Below, piece by piece: positions 1 through 46,533 of a stretch of DNA of 50,596 nt. Numbering within the stretch: position 1 is the stretch's first letter; every line of letters begins with the position of its first letter. This DNA comes from Escherichia phage tunzivis, in the sequence record MN850604.1. The stretch is one strand, 5' to 3'. The notes below the pieces were generated by a model. It worked only from the letters and a program-made list of their open reading frames with translations, searched no databases and was not told the origin of the DNA. The position numbers and the translations under genes were made by a program.

Positions 1-3
1 AGA

Positions 4-1119
4 ATGAAAAATGTAAAAATTACAGATGAGCAATTCAAGATCGAACGGGCGGCTGGTAAGACATATAAACAGATCGCTCAAGAGTACGGAATGAATGTGA
101 GAAGCGTCGAGCGTCGCGCGGCGCGACTTGCAAAGCAAGGCCAGGTATCCACCATTGGAGCGCCTGGTTTTGGCGTTCATGGTGAGTCAGTAATGACTGA
201 CAAAGAAGGCAACATAATCCTAAAGTGGACTAAAACCAGCAAGGATAAAGAGCAATTAGAAGCATTAATGCGCGCAGCAATGGAGGCATTTAGCGAGGAA
301 GTGCCGCGATTAGATCCGGTTCCATTACAGGAGCGAGACTATAACGAAACGCTTTCCTTGTATCCGATCTTTGACATGCACTTAGGCGCTATGGCCCATA
401 AGCACGAATGCGGCGAAAATTGGGATACTGCCACGGCAGAGCGCGTTATGAATAACTTTATCGACTATGCTTTAATGTGCGCACCGGATAGCGAAAAGGC
501 TGTCATCCTGATTGGTGGCGATATGCTGCATAGCGACGGCCTGGAGGCGGTTACACCTGCAAGCGGTCACGTACTGGATCAAGATAGTCGATATGCAAAA
601 TTGGTTTACGTTGCCATCCGTGCAATGCGACGAGCAATCAATAAAATGTTGTTAAAGCATAAACATGTTGAAGTCCAGATCGTAGAGGGCAATCATGACC
701 AATCAGGAATGATTTGGCTGCGCGCAGCAATGGCGGCAGCATATGAAAACGAGCCGCGCGTTTACGTTGATGTTTCCCCTCGCGTTGTGCACCACACGCA
801 ATACGGAAAAACTTTCCTTGCGTACCATCACGGGCACACAGTGCGTAAACCGGAGACTTTGCTAATGATGTGCGCGTCAGATTGGCGGGAGGACTTCGGA
901 AACTCAAAAACGATGTATGCGCACGTAGGGCACTGGCATCACCAGACCGTAACGGAAACGTCGCTTGGCATCGTGGAAGTACATAGCACCCTGGCGGCAA
1001 AAGACGCATACGCAGCGCGCGGTGGCTGGCGATCTCGACGCCGTGCGGCGGTTATCATTTACGACAAAGAGCATGGAGAGGTTGGGCGATTTGTTCACTA
1101 TCCAGAAATGATGAATTGA
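4..1119 (+). CDS. HTH domain fused to calcineurin-type metallophosphoesterase (Mre11/SbcD-like)
   Basis: 371-aa ORF; N-terminal helix-turn-helix-like segment (KTYKQIAQEYGMNVRSVERRAARL); ordered phosphoesterase motifs FDMHLG, GGDMLHSDG, EGNHDQ, YHHGH, GHWHH; followed by hairpin+T-run terminator. Confidence 0.6.
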   Translation: MKNVKITDEQFKIERAAGKTYKQIAQEYGMNVRSVERRAARLAKQGQVSTIGAPGFGVHGESVMTDKEGNIILKWTKTSKDKEQLEALMRAAMEAFSEEVPRLDPVPLQERDYNETLSLYPIFDMHLGAMAHKHECGENWDTATAERVMNNFIDYALMCAPDSEKAVILIGGDMLHSDGLEAVTPASGHVLDQDSRYAKLVYVAIRAMRRAINKMLLKHKHVEVQIVEGNHDQSGMIWLRAAMAAAYENEPRVYVDVSPRVVHHTQYGKTFLAYHHGHTVRKPETLLMMCASDWREDFGNSKTMYAHVGHWHHQTVTETSLGIVEVHSTLAAKDAYAARGGWRSRRRAAVIIYDKEHGEVGRFVHYPEMMN

Positions 1120-1166
1120 TGAATTTTTATTTAAATCAATGACAAATTAAATCAAAAACTTGCAAA

Positions 1167-1197
1167 GGGGCGGCGTTTGTCGCCTCTTTTTTTTTGT
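1167..1197 (+). terminator. rho-independent terminator
   Basis: GC stem (GGGGCGGCG..CGCCTC) followed by run of 9 T. Confidence 0.6.
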
Positions 1198-1265
1198 TTA
1201 ATTTTTTACCATGTACGTTTATCATGCGGTCAATATATTGACTTTAATTAATATGGAGAATAAAA

Positions 1266-1481
1266 ATGAAAGATTTTATTAACGCAGCTACCGCTGGATC
1301 TGGCGGTTCATCTATCGCAAGCGCCGCTACAGGGCAGTTAACCATTGCTATTGCCAGCTTTGTTTTAATGGCTGCATTCGGTGCATGGGGCGCTTACCTT
1401 CGCTGGCGTGATAGTAAAAAATTCCACGAAGCGATCGAAAAAGGTGATATTCAAAAAGCTATTGAAATCAGGGGCAAGTAA
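1266..1481 (+). CDS. putative holin
   Basis: 71 aa; one hydrophobic TM stretch ([21 protein letters not shown]) and charged C-terminus; stop overlaps endolysin start (TAATG); RBS GGAGA upstream. Confidence 0.5.
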
Positions 1482-1972
1482 TGAGCATAAAGAACAGGGT
1501 AGCGGCTGCTGCCTTTGGCGTTGCGGTTGCCTTGACTTCTCCACTTCTTGAAGAGATCGAAGGGGTAAGATACAAGCCATACAAAGATATTGCTGGAGTA
1601 TGGACGGTTTGCGCAGGAATCACCGGACCAGATGTTATCCTGGGGAAAACGTACACTAAAAAAGAGTGTGATGCTTTGTTGGCTAAGCATATCCAGGTTG
1701 CTAAAAAGGAAGTTGACAAGCAAGTTAAGGTTGATATTCCTGATAGTATGCGTGCAGCAATGTACTCATTCACTTACAATGCAGGTGTGGGAGCTTTCAG
1801 AAATTCAACAATGCTGAAACTCATCAACCAGGGGAAATTAAACGAGGCTTGCGATCAGCTTTATCGTTGGACTTATTACCATAACCCAAAAACAGGAAAG
1901 CGCGAGAAGTCTAAAGGCTTACTTAACAGGCGCAAGGTCGAATACAAATATTGCACAATGGATCTGAAATGA
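1481..1972 (+). CDS. SAR endolysin (phage lysozyme, R21-like)
   Basis: 163 aa; N-terminal Ala/Gly-rich signal-anchor-release segment ([14 protein letters not shown]); lysozyme E-D-T region ([28 protein letters not shown]); [16 protein letters not shown] motif typical of P21/P22-type lysozymes. Confidence 0.85.
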
Positions 1973-2364
1973 TGAAGAATTTTTTACTTACACCAATCGC
2001 AATGGCGGTGATCTTGTCTGGATGTTCAAGCGTTACGCCACTGACCGGATTAATCGGCAGTAAGCCGGAAATCACAGCACAGGCTGGAGCGGAGAACGTG
2101 AAGCAGACAGTTGGCATTACAGCAAAGCAGGACGCCAGCACAAAACAGGAAACCACAATAAAGGAATCTGCGGTTGACAAGGTGGACACGTCCAGCAAGA
2201 AGGATTTCACAACATCAACCATTCAGGCCAATACCATCAAGGCAGACAAAATTCAGGTCGTGCAGGGTAATAACGGCAGATGGTACGATCCAGTAATCAT
2301 ATGCGTGGTTGTGTTTCTTGTGCTGATTTGTCTTTACTGGAGAGAAAAGAAAAAGGAGGCTTAA
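1969..2364 (+). CDS. unimolecular spanin (u-spanin, T1 gp11-like)
   Basis: ATG at 1969 overlaps endolysin stop (ATGA); lipoprotein signal with lipobox LSGC; C-terminal TM segment ([16 protein letters not shown]); position after endolysin. Confidence 0.6.
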
Positions 2365-2381
2365 TGCCTCCTTTATTTTTA
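2354..2381. terminator. bidirectional terminator between convergent lysis and early-left operons
   Basis: AGGAGGC-ttaat-GCCTCCT hairpin flanked by A-run and T-run. Confidence 0.55.
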
Positions 2382-2603
2382 TGCGTCGGGCCACATATGA
2401 GTTTCGTTTGTTGGCTTGTTCGATTCGTCGTACTGCCTTACTTCAATGCTGCAAGTGTCGCCGTACATTTCTGAAATCTTGCGCTCATTTTCAACCGCCG
2501 ATTGCTCACTCCAGCCTGAATCCTTATCGTAAACTGTCGGAATTTCAGAAGAAGATCCATTTGCATGATTGTATACGCGAACTACTAAAAACTTGCTGGA
2601 CAT
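2379..2603 (-). CDS. hypothetical protein
   Basis: ORF 2379..2654; start chosen at internal ATG (MSSKFLVV) preceded by AAAAAGGAAAA; motif-type promoter upstream. Confidence 0.4.
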   Translation of the reverse strand: MSSKFLVVRVYNHANGSSSEIPTVYDKDSGWSEQSAVENERKISEMYGDTCSIEVRQYDESNKPTNETHMWPDA

Positions 2604-2664
2604 AATTTTTCCTTTTTGGTTGGTTCGTTTCGATGAAACAAATATACCCGACACAAGGTCTGGA

Positions 2665-2683
2665 GTTTTAACAAAAAATGCTA
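2665..2683 (-). promoter_or_regulatory. conserved motif copy (reverse strand; variant TAGCATTTTTTGTTAAAAC), upstream of 2379..2603
   Basis: 18-nt spacer then TATATT (-10-like); CATCGAAACGAACC leader follows. Confidence 0.55.
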
Positions 2684-2801
2684 TTCCATACGCTTTACTG
2701 TAACCAATAACACACCATCATCATTGCATAAAACGTGTTCAGTGGTGCTAAAAGCTCGCATATCTGAATAAAGTAGCGTAAGTAAAGCATGAATAAAATC
2801 A

Positions 2802-3197
2802 TCATGTGATATTGAATTTACGGCGCAGTGCTTCAAGATCTTGTCTATTAGCTTTTGCCTGGAACAATTCATCATCGCCCATCTCCCCTATTCTAGCTAT
2901 ATCCCTGATCCAGTCGTTGCGCATACCATCCAGGCTATACAATTCGAATCCGAAAGGCCGCTTTGACGATCCTTTGGACCAGTATTTTCCGCAGACTCCA
3001 TCTATATAACCAGCCGTCATCATTCTTGCGCAAAATTCCTTAGATGCAAGGCTGGCGAACATTCGCGGCGTAAGTCCGGCGGCCCGTGCGAGCCGCTCAC
3101 ATTCTCTATGCTGATAGATAAATTTGGCTATGTGCTGCCTGTTAAACCAATCGTATGACTCACACCATTTATACAGATCAAGCAAAAACATAATCAT
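2802..3197 (-). CDS. hypothetical protein
   Basis: 131-aa ORF; start ATG overlaps stop of upstream gene 3194..4774 (ATGA coupling). Confidence 0.45.
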   Translation of the reverse strand: MIMFLLDLYKWCESYDWFNRQHIAKFIYQHRECERLARAAGLTPRMFASLASKEFCARMMTAGYIDGVCGKYWSKGSSKRPFGFELYSLDGMRNDWIRDIARIGEMGDDELFQAKANRQDLEALRRKFNIT

Positions 3198-4774
3198 CCC
3201 AGCAGTATTGGATTGACAAAAATAACACCATTAATCACACAAACATAATTTCTTTCTTCCAGCATTGGCAGTAAGTGCCCTTCTATCCTTTTCATTACGC
3301 CAGCCTGACCAACGAAAGGTTTTACCTTTCTCGCTGATTCGTACAGGGCGCGGATATTCAGAATCCCTTTATTAGCCTTGCCGTGCCTCGTGATCAATTC
3401 AATCAATTTACCCATTTCAGCATCATCACCAGCATAACCAGAAGCATTGGCGGCGCTAATGTATGTTTTGCTCAATTCCTGAAACATGATCAACGCCTCT
3501 TGCATTGTTTCCACGTCGATCTCTTTCGACTTCTGCGGGTATCCGGCAGGATTAAACCAGTTACGGATAACATGCAGGACGGAAGCAAGCCTGATCACCT
3601 GTTTATCCATTTTACCCAGCGCACCGCGTAACATTGTATGAGAATACTTTCCTCCGTCTGCAAGATGCGGTTCCATATCCTGGCGAGCAATGTTGAGCAC
3701 TCGCATAGCTGAACGGCTTATTTTCAGCGATATATTTGATTCGCTCATGATGTTATGCACCAATTGATAATATTGGGCTTTCAATTCAGAATCCACCGCC
3801 TCATAGGTAGAATCACCATTTTCATCAATGAATGAGCGACGGCCTAAGAATGATTCCTCTCGGACCAACAAAAAACGCTCACTAACACCGATGCCTCGCG
3901 ATCCAGCGTCCATGATTCCGCTTATCGTTTCATCCTGGGCTATGACGCTCATACATCCAAGCGCGCGAAAACTCATATTATTGTCAGCATTAGCACGGGC
4001 AATTGATACGTGACCATTATCCCACGCCTTAAGCACTAACTCACTGTTAGTCTTCCTTTCGCTATTTGCATAGGTCAAGCCTAACAGACTGTTAATACTT
4101 GTTGCTTCATCAGATATTACGGCAAAGTTACCTTGCTTGTTGTTGATTTTCGCCAAGCCTTCTGGAGTTGTATCTGAAACAGGAAAAGTTATATCACACA
4201 TTTTTTCCAGCTTTTCCTCCAGATCCTCTTTTTCCTGGTATAGAGATTCCATATCAGCGCCGGATCTTTCGCTTTTCATCTCCTTTGCAAGACCTGCCAG
4301 CTTTGCCTGTATTTTCTTTCTTTCCTTGCGGCGTTGCTCGTTGATCTTCTCAACTTCCGCAATCATCGGAGCAATAGCCATGCTGTTGATCGCAGATTTA
4401 CCAGTTGACGGCGGCTGGCTTGTAACGACGTAAAGCGCAGTCGGCTGATCGGTTCCGTGATAGTCAACCGTAAAGCGTCCAAGCATAGCGGCAGAAATGC
4501 AGCCGATAAAGTGCATGTAAGCCGATGATTCAGGGAATTGAACGGATCGCGCAATGCTGCGTGATAACTTGCCGACAACATCAATATCATTACCAAGAGA
4601 AATAACGGGGTAGCGATCGTGACCGCTATTCACATCCTTTACGTCGCCCCAAAAGCTGGACGACTGGCGATAGCCGTTAGCCTGAATTGATACGCGAACT
4701 GGCGAAAGGTTCTGGCTTTCAGCCATAGCGATTATTTGTTGTGGAGTTAATTTGTTCGTTTCTAATGAAAACAT
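3194..4774 (-). CDS. P-loop NTPase, putative replication-associated helicase-like protein (DUF3987-like)
   Basis: 526 aa; Walker A-like VVTSQPPSTGKSAINS; RBS AAGGAGAAG; motif-type promoter 53 bp upstream; family assignment is from memory. Confidence 0.45.
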   Translation of the reverse strand: MFSLETNKLTPQQIIAMAESQNLSPVRVSIQANGYRQSSSFWGDVKDVNSGHDRYPVISLGNDIDVVGKLSRSIARSVQFPESSAYMHFIGCISAAMLGRFTVDYHGTDQPTALYVVTSQPPSTGKSAINSMAIAPMIAEVEKINEQRRKERKKIQAKLAGLAKEMKSERSGADMESLYQEKEDLEEKLEKMCDITFPVSDTTPEGLAKINNKQGNFAVISDEATSINSLLGLTYANSERKTNSELVLKAWDNGHVSIARANADNNMSFRALGCMSVIAQDETISGIMDAGSRGIGVSERFLLVREESFLGRRSFIDENGDSTYEAVDSELKAQYYQLVHNIMSESNISLKISRSAMRVLNIARQDMEPHLADGGKYSHTMLRGALGKMDKQVIRLASVLHVIRNWFNPAGYPQKSKEIDVETMQEALIMFQELSKTYISAANASGYAGDDAEMGKLIELITRHGKANKGILNIRALYESARKVKPFVGQAGVMKRIEGHLLPMLEERNYVCVINGVIFVNPILLG

Positions 4775-8749: not shown

Positions 8750-9300
8750 GTTATCGCCAGGATTGCGATCGAAATAATCAAAAGTAATCATTCGTAATCA
8801 AATCACGTCAAAATGATGATTGCCTTTGCAAATTTGATGAGAAAAGCAATCACGTTTAATCATTGGTTGCAGGGGAGATAGTGAAACCTTCCCCTCTTGC
8901 CTCACTTTTCCGCTTGGCTGTCAGCGGTTGTTGTCTTTTGTTCACCCCTGTTACCGATTTCAGGCGGCGTGTTTCCGCGCGGTTTTCCGGTGTATCGAAA
9001 ACGGAAAAAACAAAAAAAATCCTTTATAATACATTGAAAATAAAGATTATTTATTTATATATATCTATAATGTTTTCTTTTTGTTCTCACTGTTACAGTG
9101 CTTTTTGTTGGGTATGGTGTGTTTGTGTGTGGGTATATATGGATAGTTGCGCGCGCGGCGGATTGCATATGTATATATACTTTTTCCGGCGGATTGCGTT
9201 AACAGCGTGAACAGAAAAATAACAGCCCTGAAATCAATAACTTGCGCATGATTTTGTAGTTTTTCGATATTGGTAACGTTTTGAATACAACAAAAACATT
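8750..9300. repeat. AT-rich divergent control region with short direct repeats (TAATCA-type), TA/TG-rich tracts and a motif-like AGTGCTTTTTGTT
   Basis: TAATCA/AATCAC repeats 8775..8870; GGTTTTCCGGTGTATCGAAAAC 8981..9002; TTATTTATTTATATATATCTATAAT 9047..9071; GTGTGTTTGTGTGTGGGTATATATGG 9118..9143. Confidence 0.5.
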
Positions 9301-9326
9301 GACACGCACAAAATAGCTTTTATAAT
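9299..9326 (+). promoter_or_regulatory. consensus sigma70 promoter (TTGACA-16 nt-TATAAT), candidate early promoter
   Basis: TTGACA at 9299..9304, TATAAT at 9321..9326; 32 bp upstream of first rightward gene. Confidence 0.65.
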
Positions 9327-9357
9327 GCGCCAACAGTCAACAACTGGAGGAAAGGAA

Positions 9358-34115: not shown

Positions 34116-37100
34116 ATGGCTAAATATATGATAAGCGGCAGTAAGGGCGGAAGCAAAAAGCCATACGTGCCAAAAGAGATGGAAGATAACCTGATCTCGA
34201 TAAACAAGATTAAAGTTTTGCTGGCTGTATCTGATGGCGAGTGCGATCCAGATTTCACGTTGCGCGATCTTTATCTTGATGATGTTCCGGTTATTGCCAG
34301 CGATGGCACTGTTAACTACGAGGGTGTTACTGCTGAATATCGACCAGGTACGCAGACGCAAGATTACATCCAGGGTTTTACTGACACATCAAGTGAGGTG
34401 ACAGTTGCAAGAGATATTACCGGAGACAATCCTTATGTTATTTCTGTTACAAATAAAAATCTATCTGCGGTAAGAATAAAGATCCTGATGCCAGTAGGCA
34501 TAAAACAGGAGGATAACGGCGATCTTGTTGGCGTAAGGGTTGAGTATGCCGTAGATATGGCTATTGATGGCGGTTCTTATAGCGAGGTTATGAGAGATGT
34601 AATTGACGGCAAGACAAGATCAGGATACGACCGCAGCAGAAGGATTGATCTTCCTAAGTTTGATGAGCGCGTTTTAATCCGAGTAAAGCGACTGACTCCA
34701 GACAGCACATCTTCAAAGGTAACTGATAAAATCAAGCTGCAAAGTTACGCTGAGGTTGTTGATGCAAAATTCCGTTATCCTCTGACTGGCCTTGTATTCG
34801 TAGAATTTGACAGTGAATTGTTTCCTACGCAAATCCCTAACATTTCTATAAAAAAGAAATGGAAGATTATTAATGTGCCAAGCAACTATGATCCAATATC
34901 AAGAGAATATCACGGGTCATGGGATGGGACTTTTAAAAAAGCGTGGTCAAATAATCCCGCTTGGGTTCTTTATGATCTGGTGACAAATCAGCGTTATGGA
35001 CTTGATCAGCGAGAGTTAGGAATACAGATCGACAAGTGGAGCTTATACGAGGCGGGCGTTTACTGTGATCAGAAAGTTCCAGACGGTAAGGGCGGTACTG
35101 AGCCTCGCTACCTATGCGATGTGGTGATTCAGAATCAAGTTGAGGCTTATCAGCTAATCCGTGACATTTGCTCAATCTTTCGCGGAATGAGTTTTTGGAA
35201 TGGTGAGAGCTTATCAATCGTGATTGATAAGCCACGCGATCCATCATACGTGTTTACTAATGAAAACGTCATCAACGGTGATTTTCAGTACACAACCGCA
35301 AGCGAAAAAAGCATGTACACGCAGTGTAACGTGACGTTTGACGACGAACAAAACATGTATCAGCAGGACGTAGAGGGTGTTTTTGATACTGAGGCGGCAT
35401 TACGATTTGGATACAATCCAACAAGCATTACAGCGATCGGGTGCACACGCAGGAGCGAAGCGAATCGTCGCGGTCGGTGGGTTTTGAAAACAAACCTTAG
35501 AAGCACTACTGTAAACTTTGCTACCGGACTAGAGGGGATGATTCCATCAATAGGTGATGTTATTGCTATCGCTGATAATTTTCAGAGTAGCAACCTAACG
35601 TTAAACCTATCGGGCCGAGTAATGGAAGTTTCAGGATTGCAGGTTTTCGTTCCGTTTAAGGTTGATGCTCGCCCTAGTGATTTTATTATCATCAACAAGC
35701 CGGACGGCAAGCCAGTTAAGCGCACGATCTCAAAGGTTAGCGCAGACGGAAAAACCATAGAGTTAAATATTGGATTTGGTTTTGATGTTAAGCCTGATAC
35801 TGTTTTTGCGATTGACCGTACTGATCTTGCGTTGCAGCAATACGTTGTGACAACTATCAGCAAGGGTGATGACGAAAACGAGTTTACCTATTCAATCACG
35901 GCTGTGGAGTACGATCCGAACAAATACGACGAGATTGATTATGGCGTAAACATTGATGACAGGCCGACTTCAATTGTTCAGCCTGACGTGATGGCAGCGC
36001 CTGAGAACGTTAAGATCTCATCTTATTCTCGCGTCGTGCAGGGCGTTAGCGTTGAGACTATGGTTGTTTCATGGGATAAGGTTCCTTACGCATCGCTTTA
36101 TGAAATGCAGTGGCGAAAAGGTGATGGTAACTGGCTGAATACGCCGCAGACCGCTAACAAAGAGATAGAGGTAGAAGGGATTTATTCAGGCAACTACCAA
36201 GTAAGGGTGAGATCCGTTTCTGCAAGCGGTAACACTTCCCCGTGGTCAAGGATTGCAACCGCAACCCTGACAGGTAAAGTTGGCGAGCCAGGAGCGCCGA
36301 TTAATCTTACAGCCTCTGATAATGAAGTTTTTGGCATTCGTGTTAAATGGGGTATGCCGGAAGGTTCAGGCGATACTGCCTACATTGAGCTTCACCAATC
36401 GCCAGATGGAACGGTGGAAAACTCAAGTCTTCTTACGCTGATCCCATATCCGCAATATGAGTATTGGCATAGCACTTTACCAGCGGGGCAAGTTGTATGG
36501 TATAGAATCCGCAGCGTTGACAGAATAGGCAACGTTTCAAGCTGGACTGACTTTGTTCGCGGCATGGCGTCAGATGACGTTGAATCTGTTTTGGGCGACA
36601 TTCTGGACAAGATTTTTGATACAGAAGCTGGTCAAGAAATCAAAGAGAACGCCATAGACAGTGCCAATAAAATCAAAGACCAGGCGCAATCAATCATACA
36701 GAACGCGTTGGCAAATGATGCAGATGTGAAGTGGACGCGAGTGCAAAACGGAAAGCGCAAGGCTGAATATGGTCATGCTCTTGAGCTTATCGCCAATGAA
36801 ACAGAAGCGCGCGTAACTCAAATCGAAGAGTTAAGGGCATCAATTGATGGCGAGATAACATCAAGCATCAAGACAGTGCAGGAGGCAATTGCCACTGAAT
36901 CAGAGACGCGAGCGACTCAAATTCAGCAGCTTGATTCTAAATTCACAAAAGAAATCGACGGCGTGCGCAAGGATACTTCTGCAAGCATTAGCGATGTAAG
37001 GCAGACAATCACTAACGAGTCAGAAGCGCGCGCTCAGGCCGTTCAGCAGCTTGACGCTAAGTTCACGAAAGAGATAAACGACCTTGACGGAGTTATCAAA

Positions 37101-37694
37101 ACAGAAGTCGAGGCTAACATCTCAGAAGTGAAACAGGCGATCGCCAATGAGACAGAGGCAAGGGTTCAGGCTGACCAGGCATTAACAGCACGATTTGGCG
37201 ACGTTGAATCTGCATTGGTTGAAAAGTTGGATTCTTGGGCGAGCGTTGATTCAGTTGGGGCTAAATACGCTATGAAACTTGGCCTTACTTACAAAGGCCA
37301 GCAATACAGCGCAGGAATGGTGATGCAGCTTTCGCAGGGTTCATCCGGCCTTATATCGCAAATTTTGTTTGATGCTAACAGGTTCGCCATTATGACTAGC
37401 TCTACTGGAGGGACTTTTACTTTGCCTTTCGTGGTTGAGAATAATCAGGTTTTCATTAATAGTCTTTTGGTGAAGAACGGTTCAATCACTAATGCGATGA
37501 TTGGTAATGTGATTCAGTCAAACAACTTTGTTCAAAACCAGCAAGGATGGAGGCTTGATAAAAACGGAATCTTTGAGAATTACGGATCAACGCCAGGAGA
37601 AGGAGCTACTAAATTCACCAATGAGGGATTGAAGGTAAAAGATGCAAACGGAGTATTGAGGGTTGAAGTCGGAAGGATTACCGGAAGATGGTAA
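34116..37694 (+). CDS. central tail fibre / host specificity protein (lambda gpJ-like)
   Basis: ORF 34065..37694; ATG at 34116; about 1190 aa; fibronectin-III-like segment; C-terminal tandem 35-44-aa repeats; last gene of tail operon. Confidence 0.85.
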   Translation: MAKYMISGSKGGSKKPYVPKEMEDNLISINKIKVLLAVSDGECDPDFTLRDLYLDDVPVIASDGTVNYEGVTAEYRPGTQTQDYIQGFTDTSSEVTVARDITGDNPYVISVTNKNLSAVRIKILMPVGIKQEDNGDLVGVRVEYAVDMAIDGGSYSEVMRDVIDGKTRSGYDRSRRIDLPKFDERVLIRVKRLTPDSTSSKVTDKIKLQSYAEVVDAKFRYPLTGLVFVEFDSELFPTQIPNISIKKKWKIINVPSNYDPISREYHGSWDGTFKKAWSNNPAWVLYDLVTNQRYGLDQRELGIQIDKWSLYEAGVYCDQKVPDGKGGTEPRYLCDVVIQNQVEAYQLIRDICSIFRGMSFWNGESLSIVIDKPRDPSYVFTNENVINGDFQYTTASEKSMYTQCNVTFDDEQNMYQQDVEGVFDTEAALRFGYNPTSITAIGCTRRSEANRRGRWVLKTNLRSTTVNFATGLEGMIPSIGDVIAIADNFQSSNLTLNLSGRVMEVSGLQVFVPFKVDARPSDFIIINKPDGKPVKRTISKVSADGKTIELNIGFGFDVKPDTVFAIDRTDLALQQYVVTTISKGDDENEFTYSITAVEYDPNKYDEIDYGVNIDDRPTSIVQPDVMAAPENVKISSYSRVVQGVSVETMVVSWDKVPYASLYEMQWRKGDGNWLNTPQTANKEIEVEGIYSGNYQVRVRSVSASGNTSPWSRIATATLTGKVGEPGAPINLTASDNEVFGIRVKWGMPEGSGDTAYIELHQSPDGTVENSSLLTLIPYPQYEYWHSTLPAGQVVWYRIRSVDRIGNVSSWTDFVRGMASDDVESVLGDILDKIFDTEAGQEIKENAIDSANKIKDQAQSIIQNALANDADVKWTRVQNGKRKAEYGHALELIANETEARVTQIEELRASIDGEITSSIKTVQEAIATESETRATQIQQLDSKFTKEIDGVRKDTSASISDVRQTITNESEARAQAVQQLDAKFTKEINDLDGVIKTEVEANISEVKQAIANETEARVQADQALTARFGDVESALVEKLDSWASVDSVGAKYAMKLGLTYKGQQYSAGMVMQLSQGSSGLISQILFDANRFAIMTSSTGGTFTLPFVVENNQVFINSLLVKNGSITNAMIGNVIQSNNFVQNQQGWRLDKNGIFENYGSTPGEGATKFTNEGLKVKDANGVLRVEVGRITGRW
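36788..37180 (+). repeat. in-frame tandem repeats (~105-130 bp) within J gene
   Basis: four degenerate units beginning ATCGCCAATGA(A/G)ACAGA(A/G)GC / ATCACTAACGAGTCAGAAGC, encoding I-(A/T)-N-E-(T/S)-E-A-R...QQLD(A/S)KFTKEI. Confidence 0.6.
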
Positions 37695-38337: not shown

Positions 38338-38616
38338 TCACCCCCAAAAAGTATATATATATCTTGAATCAGATCCAGAAAGCCCACTCCATGTAACGGT
38401 GTCGCCACTCACCCCTAAGTTTGGTGCGCCAGGGTCGCCACCACGCCAGGAATTCATGCCAACATATATTGCTTTCAATGATTTACCTGGCGGCCTGTTT
38501 TGGTAAGTCTTGCTACCTGATGGCTGAGTGAATTTATCAAGGAAGAAAACAGGCGTTAAAAGTCCTGTAACTTCCCTTCCTCGATCGTCATATATTGCAT
38601 AACCATATTGCGCCAT
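38338..38616 (-). CDS. hypothetical protein
   Basis: 92-aa ORF; TAATG overlap with upstream lipoprotein gene. Confidence 0.4.
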   Translation of the reverse strand: MAQYGYAIYDDRGREVTGLLTPVFFLDKFTQPSGSKTYQNRPPGKSLKAIYVGMNSWRGGDPGAPNLGVSGDTVTWSGLSGSDSRYIYTFWG

Positions 38617-38885
38617 TAATTACACCTCAAATCAATAAATTTACTTTCATTTTGCCAACGGTTGATAAATTTAACTTCTTTATTGTCAACGCTCAACCTG
38701 TATTGCTTTTGGCTGAATCTGTTTTCGCGGACTGCATTAATTTTGACTTCATGGAATCCGTTAACAGGGAATGTTTTAACGTTAAATTTTGCCGTGCAAT
38801 CGATCTCCTTGAAGTTGCCAGTAGGCGACGCTGCGCATCCTGTCAGAGCGGCTACAGTGGCGATAACTGCGATTAACTTTTTCAT
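38616..38885 (-). CDS. lipoprotein (candidate Cor/Llp-like superinfection-exclusion protein)
   Basis: 89 aa; signal peptide with lipobox LTGC; first gene behind a motif-type promoter; near tail-fibre region as cor-type genes are in other phages. Confidence 0.5.
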   Translation of the reverse strand: MKKLIAVIATVAALTGCAASPTGNFKEIDCTAKFNVKTFPVNGFHEVKINAVRENRFSQKQYRLSVDNKEVKFINRWQNESKFIDLRCN

Positions 38886-38937: not shown

Positions 38938-38955
38938 GTTTAGCAAAAAGTGCTA
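38938..38955 (-). promoter_or_regulatory. conserved motif copy (variant TAGCACTTTTTGCTAAAC) upstream of lipoprotein operon 38885->37721
   Basis: 18-nt spacer then TATAGT; RBS AAGGAGAT. Confidence 0.5.
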
Positions 38956-39325
38956 TTTGTTATTTTTTGTTTTCCGGTGTTATCGAATTTAAGACGGCGT
39001 AAATTTAGCGCAAAATTTAGACAACATAAGATCAATAAACAATCAATAAAATAGATATATACATATAAAATCAATAGTTTATTTATTTATGTATGTATAT
39101 TTGTTTTTTCTTGTTATCTGCGTTTCTTGTGGTTTTGGTTGTTTGTGGTGATTTTTCTTTCTGAGTATCTGTATGTGCCATCATTCATGTGTATGTATAT
39201 AATCCGGCGTATCTGAGAGAACATGGTAACAAGAAAAATAACACACATTAATCATTAACTTATGAGTCAAATCTGTTTTCTTGCCATCTGAGAACGTTTA
39301 GAAAACAGAAAAAACAAAACAGCTA
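38956..39325. repeat. second AT-rich divergent control region, partly homologous to 8750..9300
   Basis: GTTTTCCGGTGTTATCGAA 38969..38987 matches 8982..8999 with one inserted T; ATCAATA repeats; TTTATTTATTTATGTATGTATAT; GT-rich TGTGGTTTTGGTTGTTTGTGGTG. Confidence 0.5.
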
Positions 39326-39353
39326 TTGACTAAATCAACCAAATGGCTACAAT
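39326..39353 (+). promoter_or_regulatory. near-consensus sigma70 promoter (TTGACT-16 nt-TACAAT), candidate early promoter for recombination operon
   Basis: TTGACT 39326..39331, TACAAT 39348..39353; 30 bp upstream of exonuclease gene. Confidence 0.6.
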
Positions 39354-39383
39354 GCACGCATAAAGCAACAAGGAGCATTAAAG

Positions 39384-40439
39384 ATGAGTGATTTTAACGC
39401 CTACACTAGCGAAGAAATGAGCAACGAGCTTTATCATGATCCTAACGCGTGGACTGCTGAATATGTCAGCGGTTCCAGCCTAGCGGAGATTTACAGCACT
39501 TGCCCGGCGTACTGGAAGTACAAGCCGCGCCAGGAAACTAAGGCACTTGTTTTCGGTACGCAGTCGCATACCAACTTTGAAAGCAAGGAGCTATTCGAAA
39601 AAACATATCGCCGCGCACCGTCGCAGGATGATTTTAAAGATCTGATCACTAGTCAAACGGCGTTAGCATCAAAGCTGAAATCTTTTGGCCTGAAAGGTAC
39701 AACGGGCAAACAATACCCTGAATTACTGGAAATGCTGTACAAGTGCGGCGAGGATCTCAATGTGTGGTGGCTTATCGAAATGATGGCAGAATGCCAGGCC
39801 GCAGCGGACGGAGTGCAGTTAATAGACGCTAAAGATTATGATGCCTGTGTAGCGATGCGGCGCGTACTTGAGGCCATACCGGAGCATAACGCTTGCATGA
39901 ACAGCCCAACCGCGCAGCGTGAAATGTCAATATTTGGGATCATCAACGGCGTAAAAGTAAAAGTGCGTCTTGATCACGTTGACGTAAACAAGGATGTAAA
40001 GGCAACAATCATTAACGGTTACGACGAAAAAGGCAGGCCGATTTATGAAGAAGTCACCTATCCAGAAGCGGTGATTATCACTGACTACAAAACAACGGTT
40101 AGCGCAAATCCGGTTGACTTCCAGCGCCTGGCTTACAATCACGGCTATTATCTTAAAATGGCTTTGCAACATGACTTATTCAAAAAGGCGTATCCAGACG
40201 AGGAAAGGCCAGTAATTGTAAGATTGCTTGCTCAAGAGAAGAAAGAGCCTTACTTGCCGCTCGCATTCCGCATGAACATTGAGCAGTTGAAGATTGGGCG
40301 TATCCAGTACATGAGCGTGATCAACAAGTTTAACGTTTGCCAGCAGTTAGATGAATGGCCTTCGTATGCAAACGGACAACCAGAAATTGATCTTGATACT
40401 CCTGATTGGGTCCGTGCTCAATTCAGGCAGTATCTGTGA
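39384..40439 (+). CDS. PD-(D/E)xK recombination exonuclease
   Basis: 351 aa; RecB-like nuclease core (LDHVDV ... VIITDYKTT); first gene after consensus sigma70 promoter; followed by Erf and SSB. Confidence 0.55.
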   Translation: MSDFNAYTSEEMSNELYHDPNAWTAEYVSGSSLAEIYSTCPAYWKYKPRQETKALVFGTQSHTNFESKELFEKTYRRAPSQDDFKDLITSQTALASKLKSFGLKGTTGKQYPELLEMLYKCGEDLNVWWLIEMMAECQAAADGVQLIDAKDYDACVAMRRVLEAIPEHNACMNSPTAQREMSIFGIINGVKVKVRLDHVDVNKDVKATIINGYDEKGRPIYEEVTYPEAVIITDYKTTVSANPVDFQRLAYNHGYYLKMALQHDLFKKAYPDEERPVIVRLLAQEKKEPYLPLAFRMNIEQLKIGRIQYMSVINKFNVCQQLDEWPSYANGQPEIDLDTPDWVRAQFRQYL

Positions 40440-40514
40440 CAAACTAAACAAATAGCTAAACTTTTATAATGGTTGGTGATATAATTCGCCAACCAGATAA
40501 CGGGAGAATGAGAA

Positions 40515-40772
40515 ATGACAGATAAAGACAATGCCACATTATTGCATTTAGAACGATTCATTGATCGAGTAACCATTGCAATGAAAGAATTTATTAAGCC
40601 GATGAACATTAAAGAGTCTGAAGAAATGAAGACTTATATCAAGGACGTGGTTGCATCCATTGACAACGTTATCCTTGTTGCAACGATGAGCAAGGGAAAC
40701 AAAGAGCGCGAGAGGTTGGTTGCTGAATCAACAGAAGAATTTATTAAAATGCTTGAAAGCGAGAAGGAATAA
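40515..40772 (+). CDS. hypothetical protein
   Basis: 85-aa ORF; RBS GGGAGAATGAGAA. Confidence 0.4.
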   Translation: MTDKDNATLLHLERFIDRVTIAMKEFIKPMNIKESEEMKTYIKDVVASIDNVILVATMSKGNKERERLVAESTEEFIKMLESEKE

Positions 40773-41429
<657 letters not shown>

Positions 41430-42923: not shown

Positions 42924-44878
42924 TAAACAATTTCCCCCAATTGATGATCTGTTAGTGCCTTGTGCCATATACGGAAGTTTCTAACGTGCCCGAAAAGATG
43001 ACGTTCTCCCGTAGTTGTTTGTCCGCCAATCCTTATAGTAGCCGTCGATCTTATGTATCTCCATTCCGCTTTTGATTCGCTTGATATTATGGAATTACTT
43101 ACACAACAAGTATTGTAATCACTCTTTACTCTCATTCCCATGATCATCTTTTTTAGTTTCGCATTCTCGTAAACCCTTCGGTTTGAGTTACCTATGTCGC
43201 AATAAGGGAATCCGTCATTATCGCCTTCGGCAGACCCGAAAGCAAGAATTATTGCCGCTCCGGTTTGATGGCCGGATGTATCAAAAACACGTGGCGCAGC
43301 GTTTGGCGTTATACTCCAGTTTTTATGAGCTTCCACAAGCACTGTAAACGGCAAATTGTAAAGGTTGTTTTTTATTGGCAATGTAACCATATCGCTTGCC
43401 CTTGTTGTCGGACTTTCATTAGTTATAATGAATGATGAAGCGCAAGATCCAACCTCTACTTGAGGAGTTGTTAAATCCATAAAGCTATTTTCATCAAAAA
43501 CTTCTCCTTGTTTATTAACGACCTGTATTACCCCCCTAATGGAAGTTGATTCATCAGTAACTTTGTAAACTATTTCTGCAAAAATCCATTCCCCGTCTAT
43601 GGTAGCGTTCTTTAGCACTATGTTTTTTGCGTCAACTCCAGAAGTTGCCACCCCTAAGTTATCGCAATCAATAATAGCAGAAGCAACAGAAGATAAAGGA
43701 TCTCCCTTGTCAAATCTTGCTGCAAATCTTACATTTTTCCCCTTAGCCCTAAAAGATATTGTAACTCCATCACCCTTTACAACTGCAATCTTATTTGCAG
43801 CAGGTCCAGCTATAATAGTGTAAGATCCTACGCCACCTAAATATTCCCCTGGTTTAAATGTTGCATACTTAAACCCCCTTTCATCAGTCTTAGTTTCACC
43901 TCTTTCTAATCCTGGATTTGGATTCCATGATTCAGGCTTATTTGAATTTAAAAAATAGTTTGTTCTCTGCCCTTCAATCAAAAGACCATCCTTTTCAAAT
44001 CTAGGTTCATCAATAGCAGCATCAGTAAGCAACCCAGACTTATTAATGTAAGTAGCGGTTGATGCACGTTTAAACTTAACAATCTTGTCACCTGGCATCG
44101 TGATCTCATCATCACCTATGACAATCTTTTTGTATGACGGCGAGAATCCGGTGATCATATCCAGGGAATCATTAAATGGTATCCACACGTCAGGTAGAGG
44201 CTGCAATAAATCTTTGTAAGGTTCTGCGGCCTGTTTTGCGTATTCCTCCGCTTGATCTCGCGCACTTTCAGCGCCTGCCTTTGCGGTGTTCGCAGCATCA
44301 CGCGCAGTTTCAGCGCCTTTTCTTGCAGTTTCAGCGCCAGTCTTTGCAGTGTTTGCAGCGTCGCGCGCGGATTCAGCGGCAGCCTTTGCAGTATCAGCGC
44401 CTTTCTTGCTATTCGCTGCATTTGTTGCGCTTGTCTTCGCGTTATTCTCGCTGGTTTTAGCTGCCTGCTGGCTTGCTGCTGCTGCGTCAGCATTTGTCTT
44501 TACGTCTTCCTGGATCTTCTGTAGCTTATCCCAATCAAAATCCTTGATGATCTCAATAAATCCAGCAAACTCCGATTCCTTCCCCTGGTAATAACGCAAC
44601 GTTTCCGCTACGTCTTGCGCAAGACCGTCAACCGTTAACGAGTCATGAAGCAAGATCAGGTAATTTGTCTTCTGTACTACCGAGCCTCCAGTAGTAATTG
44701 CGCGAATGCTTGTATCGCTAATCACTTCTGTAATCACAGCAGCTTGCAAAGGTTGAGCAAGAAAGAAAATAGTTGCACCTGGGCGAATCAAGGTTAATTG
44801 CTCACGCCATTTTGTACCGTAACCAGTTACATAACCTTGCGCGTCCATAGACGCTTGGCCTTGTCTGTAAATCGCCAT
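42923..44878 (-). CDS. tail fibre protein with Ala-rich repeat and lectin-like (LamG-type) C-terminus
   Basis: ORF 42923..44902; ATG at 44878 after AGGAGG; degenerate Ala/Thr/Lys repeats (DTAKAAAESARDAANTAKTGAETARKGAETARDAANTAKAGAESARD); C-terminal ...HVRNFRIWHKALTDHQLGEI resembles concanavalin/LamG lectin signature. Confidence 0.65.
   Translation of the reverse strand: MAIYRQGQASMDAQGYVTGYGTKWREQLTLIRPGATIFFLAQPLQAAVITEVISDTSIRAITTGGSVVQKTNYLILLHDSLTVDGLAQDVAETLRYYQGKESEFAGFIEIIKDFDWDKLQKIQEDVKTNADAAAASQQAAKTSENNAKTSATNAANSKKGADTAKAAAESARDAANTAKTGAETARKGAETARDAANTAKAGAESARDQAEEYAKQAAEPYKDLLQPLPDVWIPFNDSLDMITGFSPSYKKIVIGDDEITMPGDKIVKFKRASTATYINKSGLLTDAAIDEPRFEKDGLLIEGQRTNYFLNSNKPESWNPNPGLERGETKTDERGFKYATFKPGEYLGGVGSYTIIAGPAANKIAVVKGDGVTISFRAKGKNVRFAARFDKGDPLSSVASAIIDCDNLGVATSGVDAKNIVLKNATIDGEWIFAEIVYKVTDESTSIRGVIQVVNKQGEVFDENSFMDLTTPQVEVGSCASSFIITNESPTTRASDMVTLPIKNNLYNLPFTVLVEAHKNWSITPNAAPRVFDTSGHQTGAAIILAFGSAEGDNDGFPYCDIGNSNRRVYENAKLKKMIMGMRVKSDYNTCCVSNSIISSESKAEWRYIRSTATIRIGGQTTTGERHLFGHVRNFRIWHKALTDHQLGEIV
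44203..44467 (-). repeat. Ala-rich degenerate repeats within tail fibre gene
   Basis: repeated GCGCCTGCCTTTGC/GCGCCAGTCTTTGC-type units encoding (A/T)AKxGAE(T/S)ARDAANTAK. Confidence 0.5.
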
Positions 44879-45914: not shown

Positions 45915-45969
45915 GGCAAACCTCAATAAAAAAGCCCAGCAAATATTATCATTTCGCTGAGCCTTATCA

Positions 45970-46446: not shown

Positions 46447-46458
46447 CTAGTCACCTCA

Positions 46459-46477: not shown

Positions 46478-46533
46478 AGTTTATTGTAATGAGTCTATTA
46501 TATACTCCAAATGGCATTTTTTAAAGGTTTAAG

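What the first reader, a model, noticed from the sequence alone, without database searches (positions are those of the whole stretch)
38956..39383. Second AT-rich control region (partner of 8750-9357) upstream of the recombination operon
Kept separate from the first region because its gene context differs. It separates the leftward lipoprotein operon (promoter motif at 38938..38955) from the rightward exonuclease-Erf-SSB operon driven by TTGACT-16-TACAAT. It contains GT-rich TGTGGTTTTGGTTGTTTGTGGTG and repeated GTATGTATAT tracts not seen elsewhere. A replication origin beside the recombination and SSB genes would fit a recombination-dependent replication mode.
Basis: inference. Interest (0 to 1): 0.45.

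Follow-up and report, generated by a model that had tools for sequence, protein, structure and literature searches.

The report
Candidate replication origin of T1-like phage
This 430-base gene-free stretch of a T1-like coliphage is one of two sister copies of a conserved DNA module built like the replication origins of phage P4 and staphylococcal islands, which makes it a testable candidate for an origin nobody has yet located in this classic phage family.

Summary
The window is a complete T1-like coliphage (Drexlerviridae, Warwickvirus). 38957-39383 is non-coding. It lies between a leftward Cor-like lipoprotein operon and a rightward exonuclease-Erf-SSB operon driven by TTGACT-16-TACAAT.

It is a true paralogue of 8931-9357 (alignment z=23). 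The module is conserved across the family, including T1 and TLS.

It is not loose AT-rich spacer. It holds about 15 TGTT/AACA repeats in five oriented clusters with 9-10 bp phasing (0 of 1000 shuffles match). These flank an AT-rich palindrome that, with its partner, is the least stable duplex in the genome. An IHF-like site and one conserved sigma-70 promoter follow.

The repeat word changes with lineage: AACAA in Tempevirinae, GTAAC in Tunavirinae. No conserved ORF, RNA structure, Rfam hit or DnaA box was found.

The phage encodes an MCM-like DUF3987 helicase with a C-terminal winged helix and a P4-alpha-like primase. SaPI and P4 use this protein set on origins of short inverted iterons around an AT-rich core.

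Best reading (about 0.5): an iteron-plus-unwinding-element origin coupled to an early promoter. Main rival (about 0.3): an upstream control region of the early promoter only.

The parts
38938..38956 (-). Left boundary. A copy of the family's 21-nt direct repeat (ATAGCACTTTTTGCTAAAC) with TATAGT at 38920-38915. It is the presumed promoter of the leftward Cor-like lipoprotein operon. It is not part of the conserved module, since TLS has a terminator here instead.
   Evidence: TLS Supplementary Table S1
38957..38984 (.). Outer left repeat array: TGTT at 38958, 38968 and 38978, spaced 10 bp, all in '<' orientation.
   Evidence: It is a direct repeat of 39098-39118 (86%) and an inverted repeat of 39301-39323.
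38995..39019 (.). CGGCGTAAAT box 1 with the near-palindrome TAAATTTAGC/GCAAAATTTA. The box recurs at 39204-39213.
   Evidence: D4, I11
39020..39042 (.). Inner left array: AACA at 39023 and 39038 in '>' orientation, abutting the AT-rich core.
39043..39101 (.). AT-rich core, the candidate DNA unwinding element. It includes TAAAAT/TATATA and an exact IHF-consensus match at 39069-39081. It forms the centre of a 33-nt imperfect palindrome (arms 39038-39070 and 39083-39115).
   Evidence: Least stable 50 bp (39050-39099, z 4.5) and 100 bp (39012-39111, z 5.0) of the genome, alongside the partner. Palindrome. TATATA enrichment. IHF match.
39098..39125 (.). Inner right array: TGTT at 39102 and 39112, plus CGTT at 39121, all in '<' orientation. 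It faces the inner left array across the AT-rich core.
   Evidence: D1, D2, I5, I6
39126..39152 (.). GT-rich tract TGTGGTTTTGGTTGTTTGTGGTG. It is conserved in composition within Tempevirinae only and is absent from the T1 lineage.
39190..39213 (.). TGTATGTATATAAT followed by CCGGCGTATC (box 2). The overlapping GTGCCA-17-TATAAT promoter-like match is not conserved in related genera.
39216..39245 (.). Right array R1: AACA at 39220, 39228 and 39240 in '>' orientation. This is the position where TLS and W011D carry GTGAACA-type repeats.
39250..39262 (+). IHF-like element AATCATTAACTTA, one mismatch from WATCAANNNNTTR. An exact or one-mismatch match sits at the homologous place in 36 of 40 related loci, inverted in the T1 lineage.
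39273..39323 (.). Promoter-proximal inverted pair: TGTT at 39274 and AACA at 39304, 39313 and 39318. It is A-tract rich and UP-element-like.
   Evidence: I3, I12
39326..39353 (+). Sigma-70 promoter TTGACT-16-TACAAT. It is the only canonical promoter conserved in the module and corresponds to P51 of phage TLS.
   Evidence: TLS Supplementary Table S1
39370..39386 (+). Shine-Dalgarno AAGGAG and the ATG of the exonuclease VIII gene (39384-40439).
8931..9357 (.). Paralogous sister module (region A) with the same order of arrays, an AT-rich core (9005-9104) and a perfect TTGACA-16-TATAAT promoter at 9299-9326.
3194..4774 (-). Candidate trans factor: DUF3987 (SF6, MCM-like) helicase with a C-terminal winged helix (residues about 449-525).
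   Evidence: PMC4889955
44985..45992 (-). Primase homologous to the N-terminal primase domain of P4 alpha. It is co-transcribed with a Cro-like HTH protein (45970-46446) from the third early promoter.

Best explanation
38957-39383 is one of two sister copies of a conserved cis-acting module of T1-like phages. It most likely serves as a replication origin of the iteron-plus-unwinding-element type, physically coupled to an early sigma-70 promoter.

Proposed mechanism:
1. Host RNA polymerase fires the three early promoters: the one at 9299, the one at 39326, and the one ahead of the Cro-like/primase operon.
2. The phage's MCM-like DUF3987 helicase uses its C-terminal winged helix to bind the helically phased TGTT/AACA repeats. 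These face each other across the AT-rich palindrome at 39043-39101.
3. IHF bending at the conserved site, and possibly transcription from the adjacent promoter, help the AT-rich core melt.
4. Helicase rings load on either side, and the P4-alpha-like primase primes synthesis.

What is shown: the anatomy, its conservation, its statistical significance, the lowest duplex stability, and the protein folds.

What is inferred: that the helicase (rather than another protein) binds the repeats, that melting occurs there, and that replication starts there.
For: 1. **Repeats.** There are 15 TGTT/AACA words, with 6 same-orientation neighbours 8-12 bp apart, against 0.41 +/- 0.66 in 1000 dinucleotide shuffles. 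Genome-wide, only this region and its partner reach 4 or more. The pooled spacing peaks at 9-10 bp.
2. **Orientation map.** It is conserved in 12 lineages including T1 and TLS: <<<, >>, AT core, <<<, >>>, <, >>, promoter. The repeat finder recovered the unit independently as direct and inverted copies, and found an AT-rich palindrome.
3. **Duplex stability.** The two AT cores are the two least stable duplex stretches of the genome at 30, 50 and 100 bp.
4. **Lineage-specific repeat word.** It is AACAA/TTGTT in Tempevirinae (9-12 copies against 1.6 expected) and GTAAC/TTACA in Tunavirinae. Within T1 the two sister regions resemble each other (score 66) more than either resembles its Tempevirinae counterparts (31-48). 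This fits a co-evolving phage-encoded binder.
6. **SaPI precedent.** SaPI Rep helicases bind 6-12 penta- or hexanucleotide iterons through such a winged helix, with at least two iterons on each side of an AT-rich centre pointing in opposite directions (PMC9371898).
7. **P4 precedent.**
   - The window's primase matches P4 alpha at E 2e-16.
   - P4 ori and crr are two separate loci sharing 8-bp repeats at 9-11 bp spacing in both orientations.
   - P4 ori lies in a divergent intergenic region.
   - Region A carries an exact TGTTCACC.
8. **Distant relatives.**
   - In a phage whose helicase is 36% identical, a 555-nt divergent intergenic region holds the least stable DNA of the locus, flanked on both sides by ACACGCCCACG repeats in both orientations. 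All 7 copies in 19.6 kb lie there.
   - In another relative, the least stable DNA and TTACT repeats lie directly downstream of the helicase gene.
9. **Literature.** No origin has been identified in T1-like phages (PMC11447400, PMC7718038).
Against: - There are no replication, binding or melting data for any T1-like phage.
- The conserved repeat core is only 4-5 bp and sits in A/T tracts. Part of the signal could therefore be intrinsically bent DNA rather than protein sites.
- The module is always attached at a fixed distance to one of only three early sigma-70 promoters, which fits a transcriptional role equally well.
- The helicase gene is 4.2 kb from the sister copy and about 34 kb from this one, whereas SaPI origins adjoin rep.
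- This copy (B) has no full GTGAACA word.
- There is no overall DNA homology to P4 ori or crr.
- The helicase shows no sequence relation to the P4 alpha helicase or its origin-binding domain.
- A Cro-like HTH protein made from the third early promoter is an alternative binder.
- GC skew only tracks gene orientation and does not discriminate.
Confidence: 0.5

Rival explanations
1. The region is purely an upstream control region of an early promoter. Phased A/T tracts and TGTT/AACA sites form bent DNA. Together with IHF, and either RNA polymerase alpha subunits or a phage regulator such as the Cro-like protein, they would boost the two early promoters and later shut them off. Under this reading there is no role in replication.
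For: - The module always ends in the conserved sigma-70 promoter, at a fixed distance.
- Only three such promoters exist in TLS, and two of them carry this module.
- The promoter-proximal repeats are A-tract rich and UP-element-like.
- An IHF-like site lies 40-140 nt upstream of the -35 in 36 of 40 loci.
- A Cro-like HTH regulator is made from the third early promoter.
Against: - The most constrained and least stable part lies 230-330 bp upstream of the start site, which is far for promoter function.
- Fourteen or more sites in five oriented clusters, plus a palindromic AT core, is more than known early-promoter controls need.
- The third early promoter works without any such module.
- The architecture matches that of known self-loading-helicase origins.
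- A distant relative has unmistakable GC-rich iterons around its AT core.
Confidence: 0.28
2. The two sister regions form a bipartite system like P4 ori/crr. Only one of them (perhaps region A, next to the probable pac module) is the true start site. This copy would be a cis-acting enhancer that binds the same protein and loops to the other.
For: - There are two paralogous loci with the same repeat words, which co-evolve within a lineage.
- P4 needs both ori and crr, which share type-1 repeats 4.8 kb apart.
- The primase is homologous to P4 alpha.
- Exact P4-type TGTTCACC and GTGAACA words occur in A but not in B.
Against: - Both copies retain the complete architecture, including the AT-rich core of minimal stability. 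P4 crr, as annotated, is instead two 120-bp direct repeats.
- The 30-kb separation is far larger than in P4.
- The helicase family differs from P4 alpha.
Confidence: 0.1
3. The region is a start site for recombination-dependent replication, or a recombination hot spot. The GT-rich tract and the easily melted core would favour strand invasion or annealing by the neighbouring Erf/SSB/exonuclease proteins.
For: - The region sits next to the exonuclease-Erf-SSB operon.
- A GT-rich tract lies beside the AT core.
- From established knowledge, not tested here: T1 concatemer formation depends on its recombination genes.
Against: - The sister copy has the same architecture, far from the recombination genes.
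- The GT-rich tract is not conserved in the T1 lineage.
- Phased oriented repeats and a lineage-specific repeat word point to sequence-specific binding. Erf-type annealing proteins are not known to need this.
Confidence: 0.07
4. The region encodes something: small proteins (GenBank record MZ234033 annotates three minus-strand ORFs here) or a structured non-coding RNA.
For: Three small hypothetical CDS are annotated in the 99.7%-identical phage vB_EcoS-G3B1. Mechanical ORFs of 33-44 aa exist.
Against: - Between genera, peptide similarity appears in all six frames, and the open segments shift frame and length.
- The RNAalifold consensus energy is about 0 on both strands for 14 sequences.
- Rfam gives no hit, even at E=1.
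- No tRNA was found.
- No conserved internal promoter exists.
Confidence: 0.03

Closest known systems
SaPI replication origins served by self-loading Rep helicases (SaPIbov1/SaPI1/SaPI5)
   Same: - Short penta- or hexanucleotide repeats lie on both sides of an AT-rich centre and point in opposite directions.
- The initiator is itself a hexameric helicase (SF3 or MCM-like SF6) that reads the repeats through a C-terminal winged helix.
- A separate or fused primase is present.
- The repeat word differs between lineages (PMC9371898).
   Different: - SaPI origins lie immediately downstream of rep and occur once. Here there are two copies, 4 kb and about 34 kb from the helicase gene.
- Each copy here is extended by outer arrays, two CGGCGTAAAT boxes, an IHF-like site and a strong early promoter.
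- Binding by the T1-type helicase is untested.
Phage P4 ori and crr (alpha primase-helicase, type-1 repeats TGTTCACC)
   Same: - Two separate cis regions share the same short repeat at 9-11 bp spacing in both orientations.
- The origin lies in a divergent intergenic region.
- The primase is homologous to the alpha N-terminal domain (E 2e-16).
- In TLS, W011D and the window's region A the repeat core is GTGAACA, including one exact TGTTCACC.
   Different: - There is no overall DNA homology.
- The helicase is MCM-like DUF3987, not the SF3 alpha helicase, and has no detectable relation to the alpha origin-binding domain.
- This copy (B) has only GAACA/TAACA/AAACA words.
- The separation is 30 kb instead of 4.8 kb.
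Early sigma-70 promoter P51 of phage TLS
   Same: It is the orthologous promoter in front of the exonuclease gene, with the same TTGACT and a 16-nt spacer.
   Different: The TLS paper lists only the promoter hexamers. It did not describe the 370-bp upstream module, its paralogue at P01 or the repeat arrays, and it reported no origin.
Bacterial oriC (DnaA-dependent)
   Same: Oppositely oriented arrays of closely phased weak sites, an IHF site and an AT-rich unwinding element.
   Different: There is no DnaA box anywhere in either region: the genome has 3 matches and none falls there. GATC sites do not cluster; the sister region sits in a 728-bp GATC-free gap.

Membership tests
Iteron-plus-AT-core origin of a self-loading winged-helix helicase (SaPI/P4 type) | Several short repeats lie on both sides of an AT-rich segment, in opposite orientations. 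| tested here: met
   AACA x2 (39023, 39038) face TGTT x3 (39102-39121) across 39043-39101, with further arrays outside. 0 of 1000 shuffles reach the observed phasing. The pattern is conserved in 12 lineages.
Iteron-plus-AT-core origin of a self-loading winged-helix helicase (SaPI/P4 type) | The AT-rich centre is an easily melted unwinding element. | tested here: met
   By nearest-neighbour energies, this region and its partner are the two least stable stretches of the genome at 30, 50 and 100 bp, z 3.9-5.0. This is computational only; melting was not observed.
Iteron-plus-AT-core origin of a self-loading winged-helix helicase (SaPI/P4 type) | The element encodes a hexameric-type helicase with a C-terminal winged-helix DNA-binding domain, plus a primase. 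| tested here: met
   [not shown]
Iteron-plus-AT-core origin of a self-loading winged-helix helicase (SaPI/P4 type) | The helicase binds the repeats specifically and melts the core. | not testable with these tools
   This needs EMSA or footprinting, plus KMnO4 probing.
Iteron-plus-AT-core origin of a self-loading winged-helix helicase (SaPI/P4 type) | The sequence confers replication in cis. | not testable with these tools
   This needs a plasmid replication assay or marker-frequency analysis.
Iteron-plus-AT-core origin of a self-loading winged-helix helicase (SaPI/P4 type) | The origin adjoins the initiator gene (typical of SaPIs, not universal). | tested here: not met
   The helicase gene is at 3194-4774. 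The nearest module (A) is 4.2 kb away and B is about 34 kb away. In the distant relative L057, the candidate region does adjoin the helicase gene.
P4 ori/crr system | Type-1 octamer TGTTCACC/GGTGAACA repeats. | tested here: not met
   B has no GTGAACA. The genome has 5 copies against 5.95 expected, 2 of them in A. TLS and W011D carry GTGAACA at the homologous array.
P4 ori/crr system | An alpha-type multifunctional protein (primase + SF3 helicase + origin-binding domain). | tested here: inconclusive
   The primase domain is homologous. The helicase is unrelated by sequence (hhalign probability 0.3%), and no PDB sequence hit to the alpha origin-binding domain was found.
Sigma-70 early promoter | -35 and -10 hexamers with a 16-18 nt spacer, conserved in relatives, upstream of an SD and a start codon. 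| tested here: met
   TTGACT-16-TACAAT at 39326-39353, 10 of 12 matches. It aligns in 42 of 43 loci and is listed as P51 in TLS. The transcription start was not mapped.
oriC-type, DnaA-dependent origin | Clustered DnaA boxes (TTWTNCACA) and GATC sites. | tested here: not met
   No DnaA box lies in A or B. GATC sites do not cluster.
Structured non-coding RNA | A conserved secondary structure or a match to a known family. | tested here: not met
   Rfam gives nothing at E<=1. The RNAalifold consensus energy is about 0 on both strands.

The most novel reading that the evidence does not exclude
The two sister modules (9.0 kb and 39.1 kb) act together as a looped, bipartite origin. The MCM-like helicase would bridge them through its winged helix, as P4 alpha bridges ori and crr. 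The complex would tie three early events into one nucleoprotein switch: firing of the early promoters, replication initiation, and (through the extra module beside region A, where the T1 and TLS records are opened) the choice of the packaging start. That would be a new way for a virulent phage to order its life cycle.
Probability: 0.12. Interest if true: 0.75.

Novelty: new member of a known kind. Interest (0 to 1): 0.55.

Why it matters
T1 is one of the seven classic T phages, and Drexlerviridae are among the commonest coliphages in collections and therapy sets. Even so, the papers I could search state that no origin has been found, and they list basic replication and regulation questions as open (PMC11447400, PMC7718038).

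This analysis gives two precise, conserved candidate sites, with a named candidate binder (the DUF3987 MCM-like helicase) and a testable repeat word. A standard plasmid-amplification or marker-frequency experiment could therefore settle the matter.

If the origin reading is confirmed:
- The principle of a self-loading winged-helix helicase on short inverted iterons would extend from satellites (SaPI, P4, SCCmec) to a large family of virulent phages.
- There would be a bacterial-virus model for MCM-type origin loading.

If the rival is right, the module is still an unusually elaborate, family-wide early-promoter control element that has not been described.

Tried and rejected
- **Rfam.** Run at gathering threshold on the whole genome and at E<=1 on the region: nothing.
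- **Conserved RNA structure.** RNAalifold in sliding windows on 14 Tempevirinae sequences, both strands: consensus energy about 0. The only helix is the TGTT/AACA inverted pair.
- **Small ORFs.** Three are annotated in MZ234033. Between genera, similarity appears in all six frames with frame shifts, so the region is treated as non-coding.
- **A second internal promoter.** The GTGCCA-17-TATAAT match at 39175 and the central TATAAT have no conserved -35 and are not retained in other genera.
- **tRNA.** None.
- **Tandem repeats.** Only the AGAAAAC run at 39300-39322.
- **DnaA boxes and GATC clustering.** Absent.
- **Direct DNA homology to P4 ori and crr.** Scores sit at shuffle level.
- **PDB sequence and profile searches.** Run with the helicase, the primase and the Cro-like protein. 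The only hit is Cro-type HTH for the last; there is no link to the P4 alpha origin-binding domain.
- **hhalign of P4 alpha against the helicase alignment.** No relation.
- **Host-factor motifs recalled from memory.** The OmpR (TGTWACAW), ArcA (TGTTA direct repeats at 11 bp) and PhoB patterns were considered. They were not pursued because the repeat word changes between phage lineages that share the same host, and the spacing is 9-10 bp rather than 11.
- **GC skew.** It follows gene orientation and is uninformative.
- **Literature.** Searches found no T1-family transcription-start, transcriptome or origin-mapping data. The 2004 T1 genome paper is not held, so I cannot exclude that it mentions these regions.
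Full report
**What the window is.**
The 50,596-base window is a complete genome of a T1-like coliphage. The region and its flanks are 99.7% identical to Escherichia phage vB_EcoS-G3B1 (Drexlerviridae, Tempevirinae, Warwickvirus). More than 120 phage records match.

The finding covers the gap between two gene sets:
- a leftward set: a Cor-like lipoprotein (38616-38885) and two membrane proteins;
- a rightward set: exonuclease VIII (39384-40439), Erf (40776-41429) and SSB.

**Check of the observation.**
- The motif at 38938-38956 is a minus-strand copy of a 21-nt repeat (ATAGCAC-N3-TTG-N-TAAAA). It has 18 copies in the genome, all pointing along their genes. It is known from phage TLS as an unexplained repeat.
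- TTGACT-16-TACAAT is at 39326-39353.
- The GT-rich tract is at 39129-39151.
- GTATGTATAT occurs exactly twice in the genome, both times here.
- The region is the most AT-rich 100 bp of the genome.

**The partner is a true paralogue.**
- 38957-39383 aligns with 8931-9357 at 68% identity over 307 columns. The score is 88 against 22.3 +/- 2.8 for dinucleotide shuffles. No other genome segment scores above 38.
- The partner carries an extra 185-nt module on its left (8745-8930) that this region lacks.
- The GenBank records of T1 and TLS are opened inside the homologous extra module. T1 annotates 1..2800 as a repeat region. That extra piece is therefore probably tied to the packaging start, not to what the two regions share.

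**Conservation.**
- I took 500 nt upstream of the exonuclease gene from 43 IMG/VR contigs, including T1 and TLS, and aligned them.
- The promoter is retained in 42 of the 43 loci. In the exception (L047) the 500-nt stretch taken did not align over the promoter block.
[quoted passage not shown] P01 corresponds to the partner region, and P57 precedes the Cro-like/primase operon.
- No other canonical promoter in the module is conserved. The window's GTGCCA-17-TATAAT at 39175 is lineage-specific.

**Anatomy.**
Upstream of the promoter the sequence is built from a short word, TGTT or its complement AACA, arranged in oriented clusters. From left to right:

| Element | Coordinates |
|---|---|
| TGTT x3 | 38958, 38968, 38978 |
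| CGGCGTAAAT box 1 | 38995-39004 |
| AACA x2 | 39023, 39038 |
| AT-rich core | 39043-39101 |
| TGTT x3 (third copy CGTT) | 39102, 39112, 39121 |
| GT-rich tract | 39126-39152 |
| TATATAAT + CCGGCGTA (box 2) | 39196-39211 |
| AACA x3 | 39220, 39228, 39240 |
| IHF-like element | 39250-39262 |
| single TGTT | 39274 |
| AACA x3, abutting the -35 | 39304, 39313, 39318 |

- *Phasing.* Six same-orientation neighbours lie 8-12 bp apart, against 0.41 +/- 0.66 in 1000 dinucleotide shuffles. The same holds for the partner and for four other genera. Across the genome, only these two regions reach four or more.
- *Spacing.* Pooled over 12 lineages, the spacing peaks at 9-10 bp, with a second peak near 16-20 bp.
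- *Independent recovery.* The repeat finder recovered a 21-nt unit (TATTTGTTATTTTTTGTTTTC) as two direct and two to three inverted copies. It also found a 33-nt imperfect palindrome whose centre is the AT-rich core.
- *Conserved map.* The order and orientation of the clusters relative to the promoter is the same in Warwickvirus, Hanrivervirus, Tlsvirus, other Tempevirinae and the T1 lineage.

**The AT-rich core.**
By nearest-neighbour duplex energies, the cores of the two sister regions are the two least stable stretches of the whole genome at 30, 50 and 100 bp (z 3.9-5.0). Seven of the 16 TATATA hexamers in the genome lie in the two regions.

**The repeat word changes with lineage.**
- In Tempevirinae the over-represented pentamer is AACAA/TTGTT (9-12 copies against about 1.6 expected). 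TLS and W011D carry GTGAACA at some positions.
- In Tunavirinae, including T1, it is GTAAC/GTTAC and TGTAA/TTACA, 7-11 copies in most lineages sampled (5 in L030) against 0.8-1.5 expected.
- Within T1, the two sister regions resemble each other (score 66) more than either resembles its Tempevirinae counterparts (31-48, shuffle level). Within Tempevirinae each copy is clearly orthologous: 260 and 204 against W011D.
- All these phages infect enterobacteria. A changing word with an unchanged layout therefore argues for a phage-encoded binder that co-evolves with both copies, not a host factor. This step is inference.

**An IHF-like site.**
A match to WATCAANNNNTTR lies 40-140 nt upstream of the -35 in 36 of 40 loci examined. 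It is exact in 22 and has one mismatch in 14, including this window. It is inverted in the T1 lineage. The whole genome has only five exact matches, two of them inside the sister regions.

**What it is not.**
- *Not coding.* Peptide similarity between genera appears in all six frames, and open segments change frame and length.
- *Not a structured RNA.* Rfam gives nothing, and the consensus folding energy is about zero on both strands.
- *No tRNA*.
- *Not oriC-like.* There are no DnaA boxes and no GATC clustering.

**The phage's replication proteins.**
- *Primase.* The gene at 44985-45992 encodes a primase with the Zn-ribbon of primase-helicases. It aligns with the N-terminal primase domain of P4 alpha (24% identity over 253 residues, E 2e-16).
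- *Cro-like protein.* The gene directly upstream of the primase gene encodes a Cro-like HTH protein.
- *Helicase.*
  - The gene at 3194-4774 encodes a DUF3987 protein.
  - This agrees with Kazlauskas et al., who placed DUF3987 in superfamily 6 with a C-terminal winged helix and proposed it as a replicative helicase.

**Comparison with known origins.**
- *SaPI.* Rep proteins are self-loading helicases (SF3 or MCM-like). A C-terminal winged helix recognises penta- or hexanucleotide iterons. There are 6-12 iterons around an AT-rich centre, with at least two on each side pointing in opposite directions (PMC9371898). That description fits 39020-39125 and its outer arrays.
- *P4.* The P4 record annotates ori with 8-bp type-1 repeats (GGTGAACA) at 10-11 bp spacing in both orientations. 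It also annotates a second cis region, crr, 4.8 kb away with the same repeats. P4 ori lies in a divergent intergenic region. The partner region here carries an exact TGTTCACC followed 10 bp later by TGTTACC, and GTTAACAGCGTGAACAGAAAAATA against P4's GTGAACAGAGGTGAACAGTAAAATA.
- *Limits of the resemblance.* It is at the level of words and layout only. Overall DNA similarity to P4 is at shuffle level. GTGAACA is not enriched genome-wide. This copy (B) lacks the full word. The helicase is unrelated in sequence to P4 alpha.

**Independent support from distant relatives.**
- *L055.* In a metagenomic phage whose DUF3987 helicase is 36% identical, a 555-nt divergent intergenic region lies ahead of the Dam-helicase-SNF2-SSB operon. 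It contains the least stable 100 bp of the 19.6-kb locus (z 4.9). ACACGCCCACG repeats flank it on both sides in both orientations, and all seven copies in the locus lie there.
- *L057.* In a second relative, the least stable DNA and TTACT/AGTAA repeats lie in a 531-nt gap immediately downstream of the helicase gene, the position SaPI origins occupy.

**Interpretation.**
- *Best reading.* The best-supported explanation is an origin of the iteron-plus-unwinding-element type, served by the phage's own MCM-like winged-helix helicase and P4-like primase. IHF and the adjacent early promoter would act as helpers. I put this at about 0.5, because no binding, melting or replication data exist.
- *Main rival.* The module may be only an elaborate upstream control region of the two early promoters (about 0.28). 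What favours it is the fixed linkage to the promoter and the A/T-tract character of the repeats.

**Novelty.**
The searchable literature states that no origin has been identified in T1-like phages. It lists only the promoter hexamers here. I found no description of the duplicated module or its arrays. The 2004 T1 genome paper could not be read.

The kind of element is known from SaPI, P4 and SCCmec. This would be a new member of that kind in a large family of virulent phages, with the unusual features of two full copies and a built-in early promoter.

Noticed in passing
window 10088, 10551, 11768, 12935, 15570, 19788, 44896, 46458, 48947, 50018 (+) and 38956, 28182, 24430, 8743, 7438, 5520, 4846, 2684 (-): There are 18 copies of the 21-nt repeat ATAGCACTTTTTGTTAAAA, all co-oriented with the downstream gene. 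Most are followed 17-20 nt later by a TAnAAT-like hexamer and about 30 nt later by an SD/ATG, often with a GC-rich hairpin between repeat and hexamer. This looks like a promoter class without a -35 that would depend on a phage factor. The TLS paper lists the repeat as unexplained.
   Followed up: partly
window 8745-8930: This is an extra module on the left of the sister region, absent from the finding. It has AATCA repeats at about 10-bp spacing and a GATGATTGCC...TTTGCAA motif. The T1 and TLS GenBank records are opened inside the homologous module, and T1 annotates 1..2800 as a repeat region. It may hold the pac site.
   Followed up: partly
window 46446-46534: This is a third divergent early control region, only 88 nt long. 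It has a leftward sigma-70-like promoter (the TLS P57 equivalent) for the Cro-like HTH + primase operon, and a rightward 21-nt-repeat promoter for the SNF2-type helicase. It carries no TGTT/AACA arrays.
   Followed up: partly
[not shown]
   Followed up: yes
L055 2070-2624 (JGI Ga0617948_0001043): In a distant phage with a 36%-identical DUF3987 helicase, a divergent intergenic region holds the least stable DNA of the locus. Repeats of ACACGCCCACG flank it in both orientations, and all 7 copies in 19.6 kb lie there. It is a clear iteron-plus-AT-core candidate origin.
   Followed up: partly
L057 8388-8918: In another relative, a 531-nt non-coding gap immediately downstream of the primase-DUF3987 gene pair contains the least stable 100 bp of the locus and TTACT/AGTAA repeats.
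   Followed up: partly
whole window; gap 8767-9495: GATC is strongly over-represented in the genome (305 against 184.5 +/- 12.5 expected), which fits the family's Dam methylase. The sister region's core lies in the second-largest GATC-free gap (728 bp).
   Followed up: no
window 40440-40515: Between the exonuclease gene and the next gene lies a degenerate copy of the 21-nt repeat (AAATAGCTAAACTTTTATAATGG) followed by GATATAAT. It sits where TLS has repeat DR9.
   Followed up: no
window 44255-44401 and 36789-37164: There are in-frame tandem repeats inside the side tail fibre gene (21/42-nt units) and inside the C-terminal part of the 1209-aa tail tip protein (about 100-130-nt units).
   Followed up: no
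phage collection records MG065636-MG065687: Eighteen records named 'Campylobacter phage' match this coliphage family at about 72% identity over the whole intergenic region. They look like T1-like enterobacterial phages filed under a different host.
   Followed up: no
MZ234033 28524-28854 (= window about 38940-39270, minus strand): The near-identical GenBank record annotates three small hypothetical proteins inside the non-coding module. Comparison between genera gives no support for them.
   Followed up: yes
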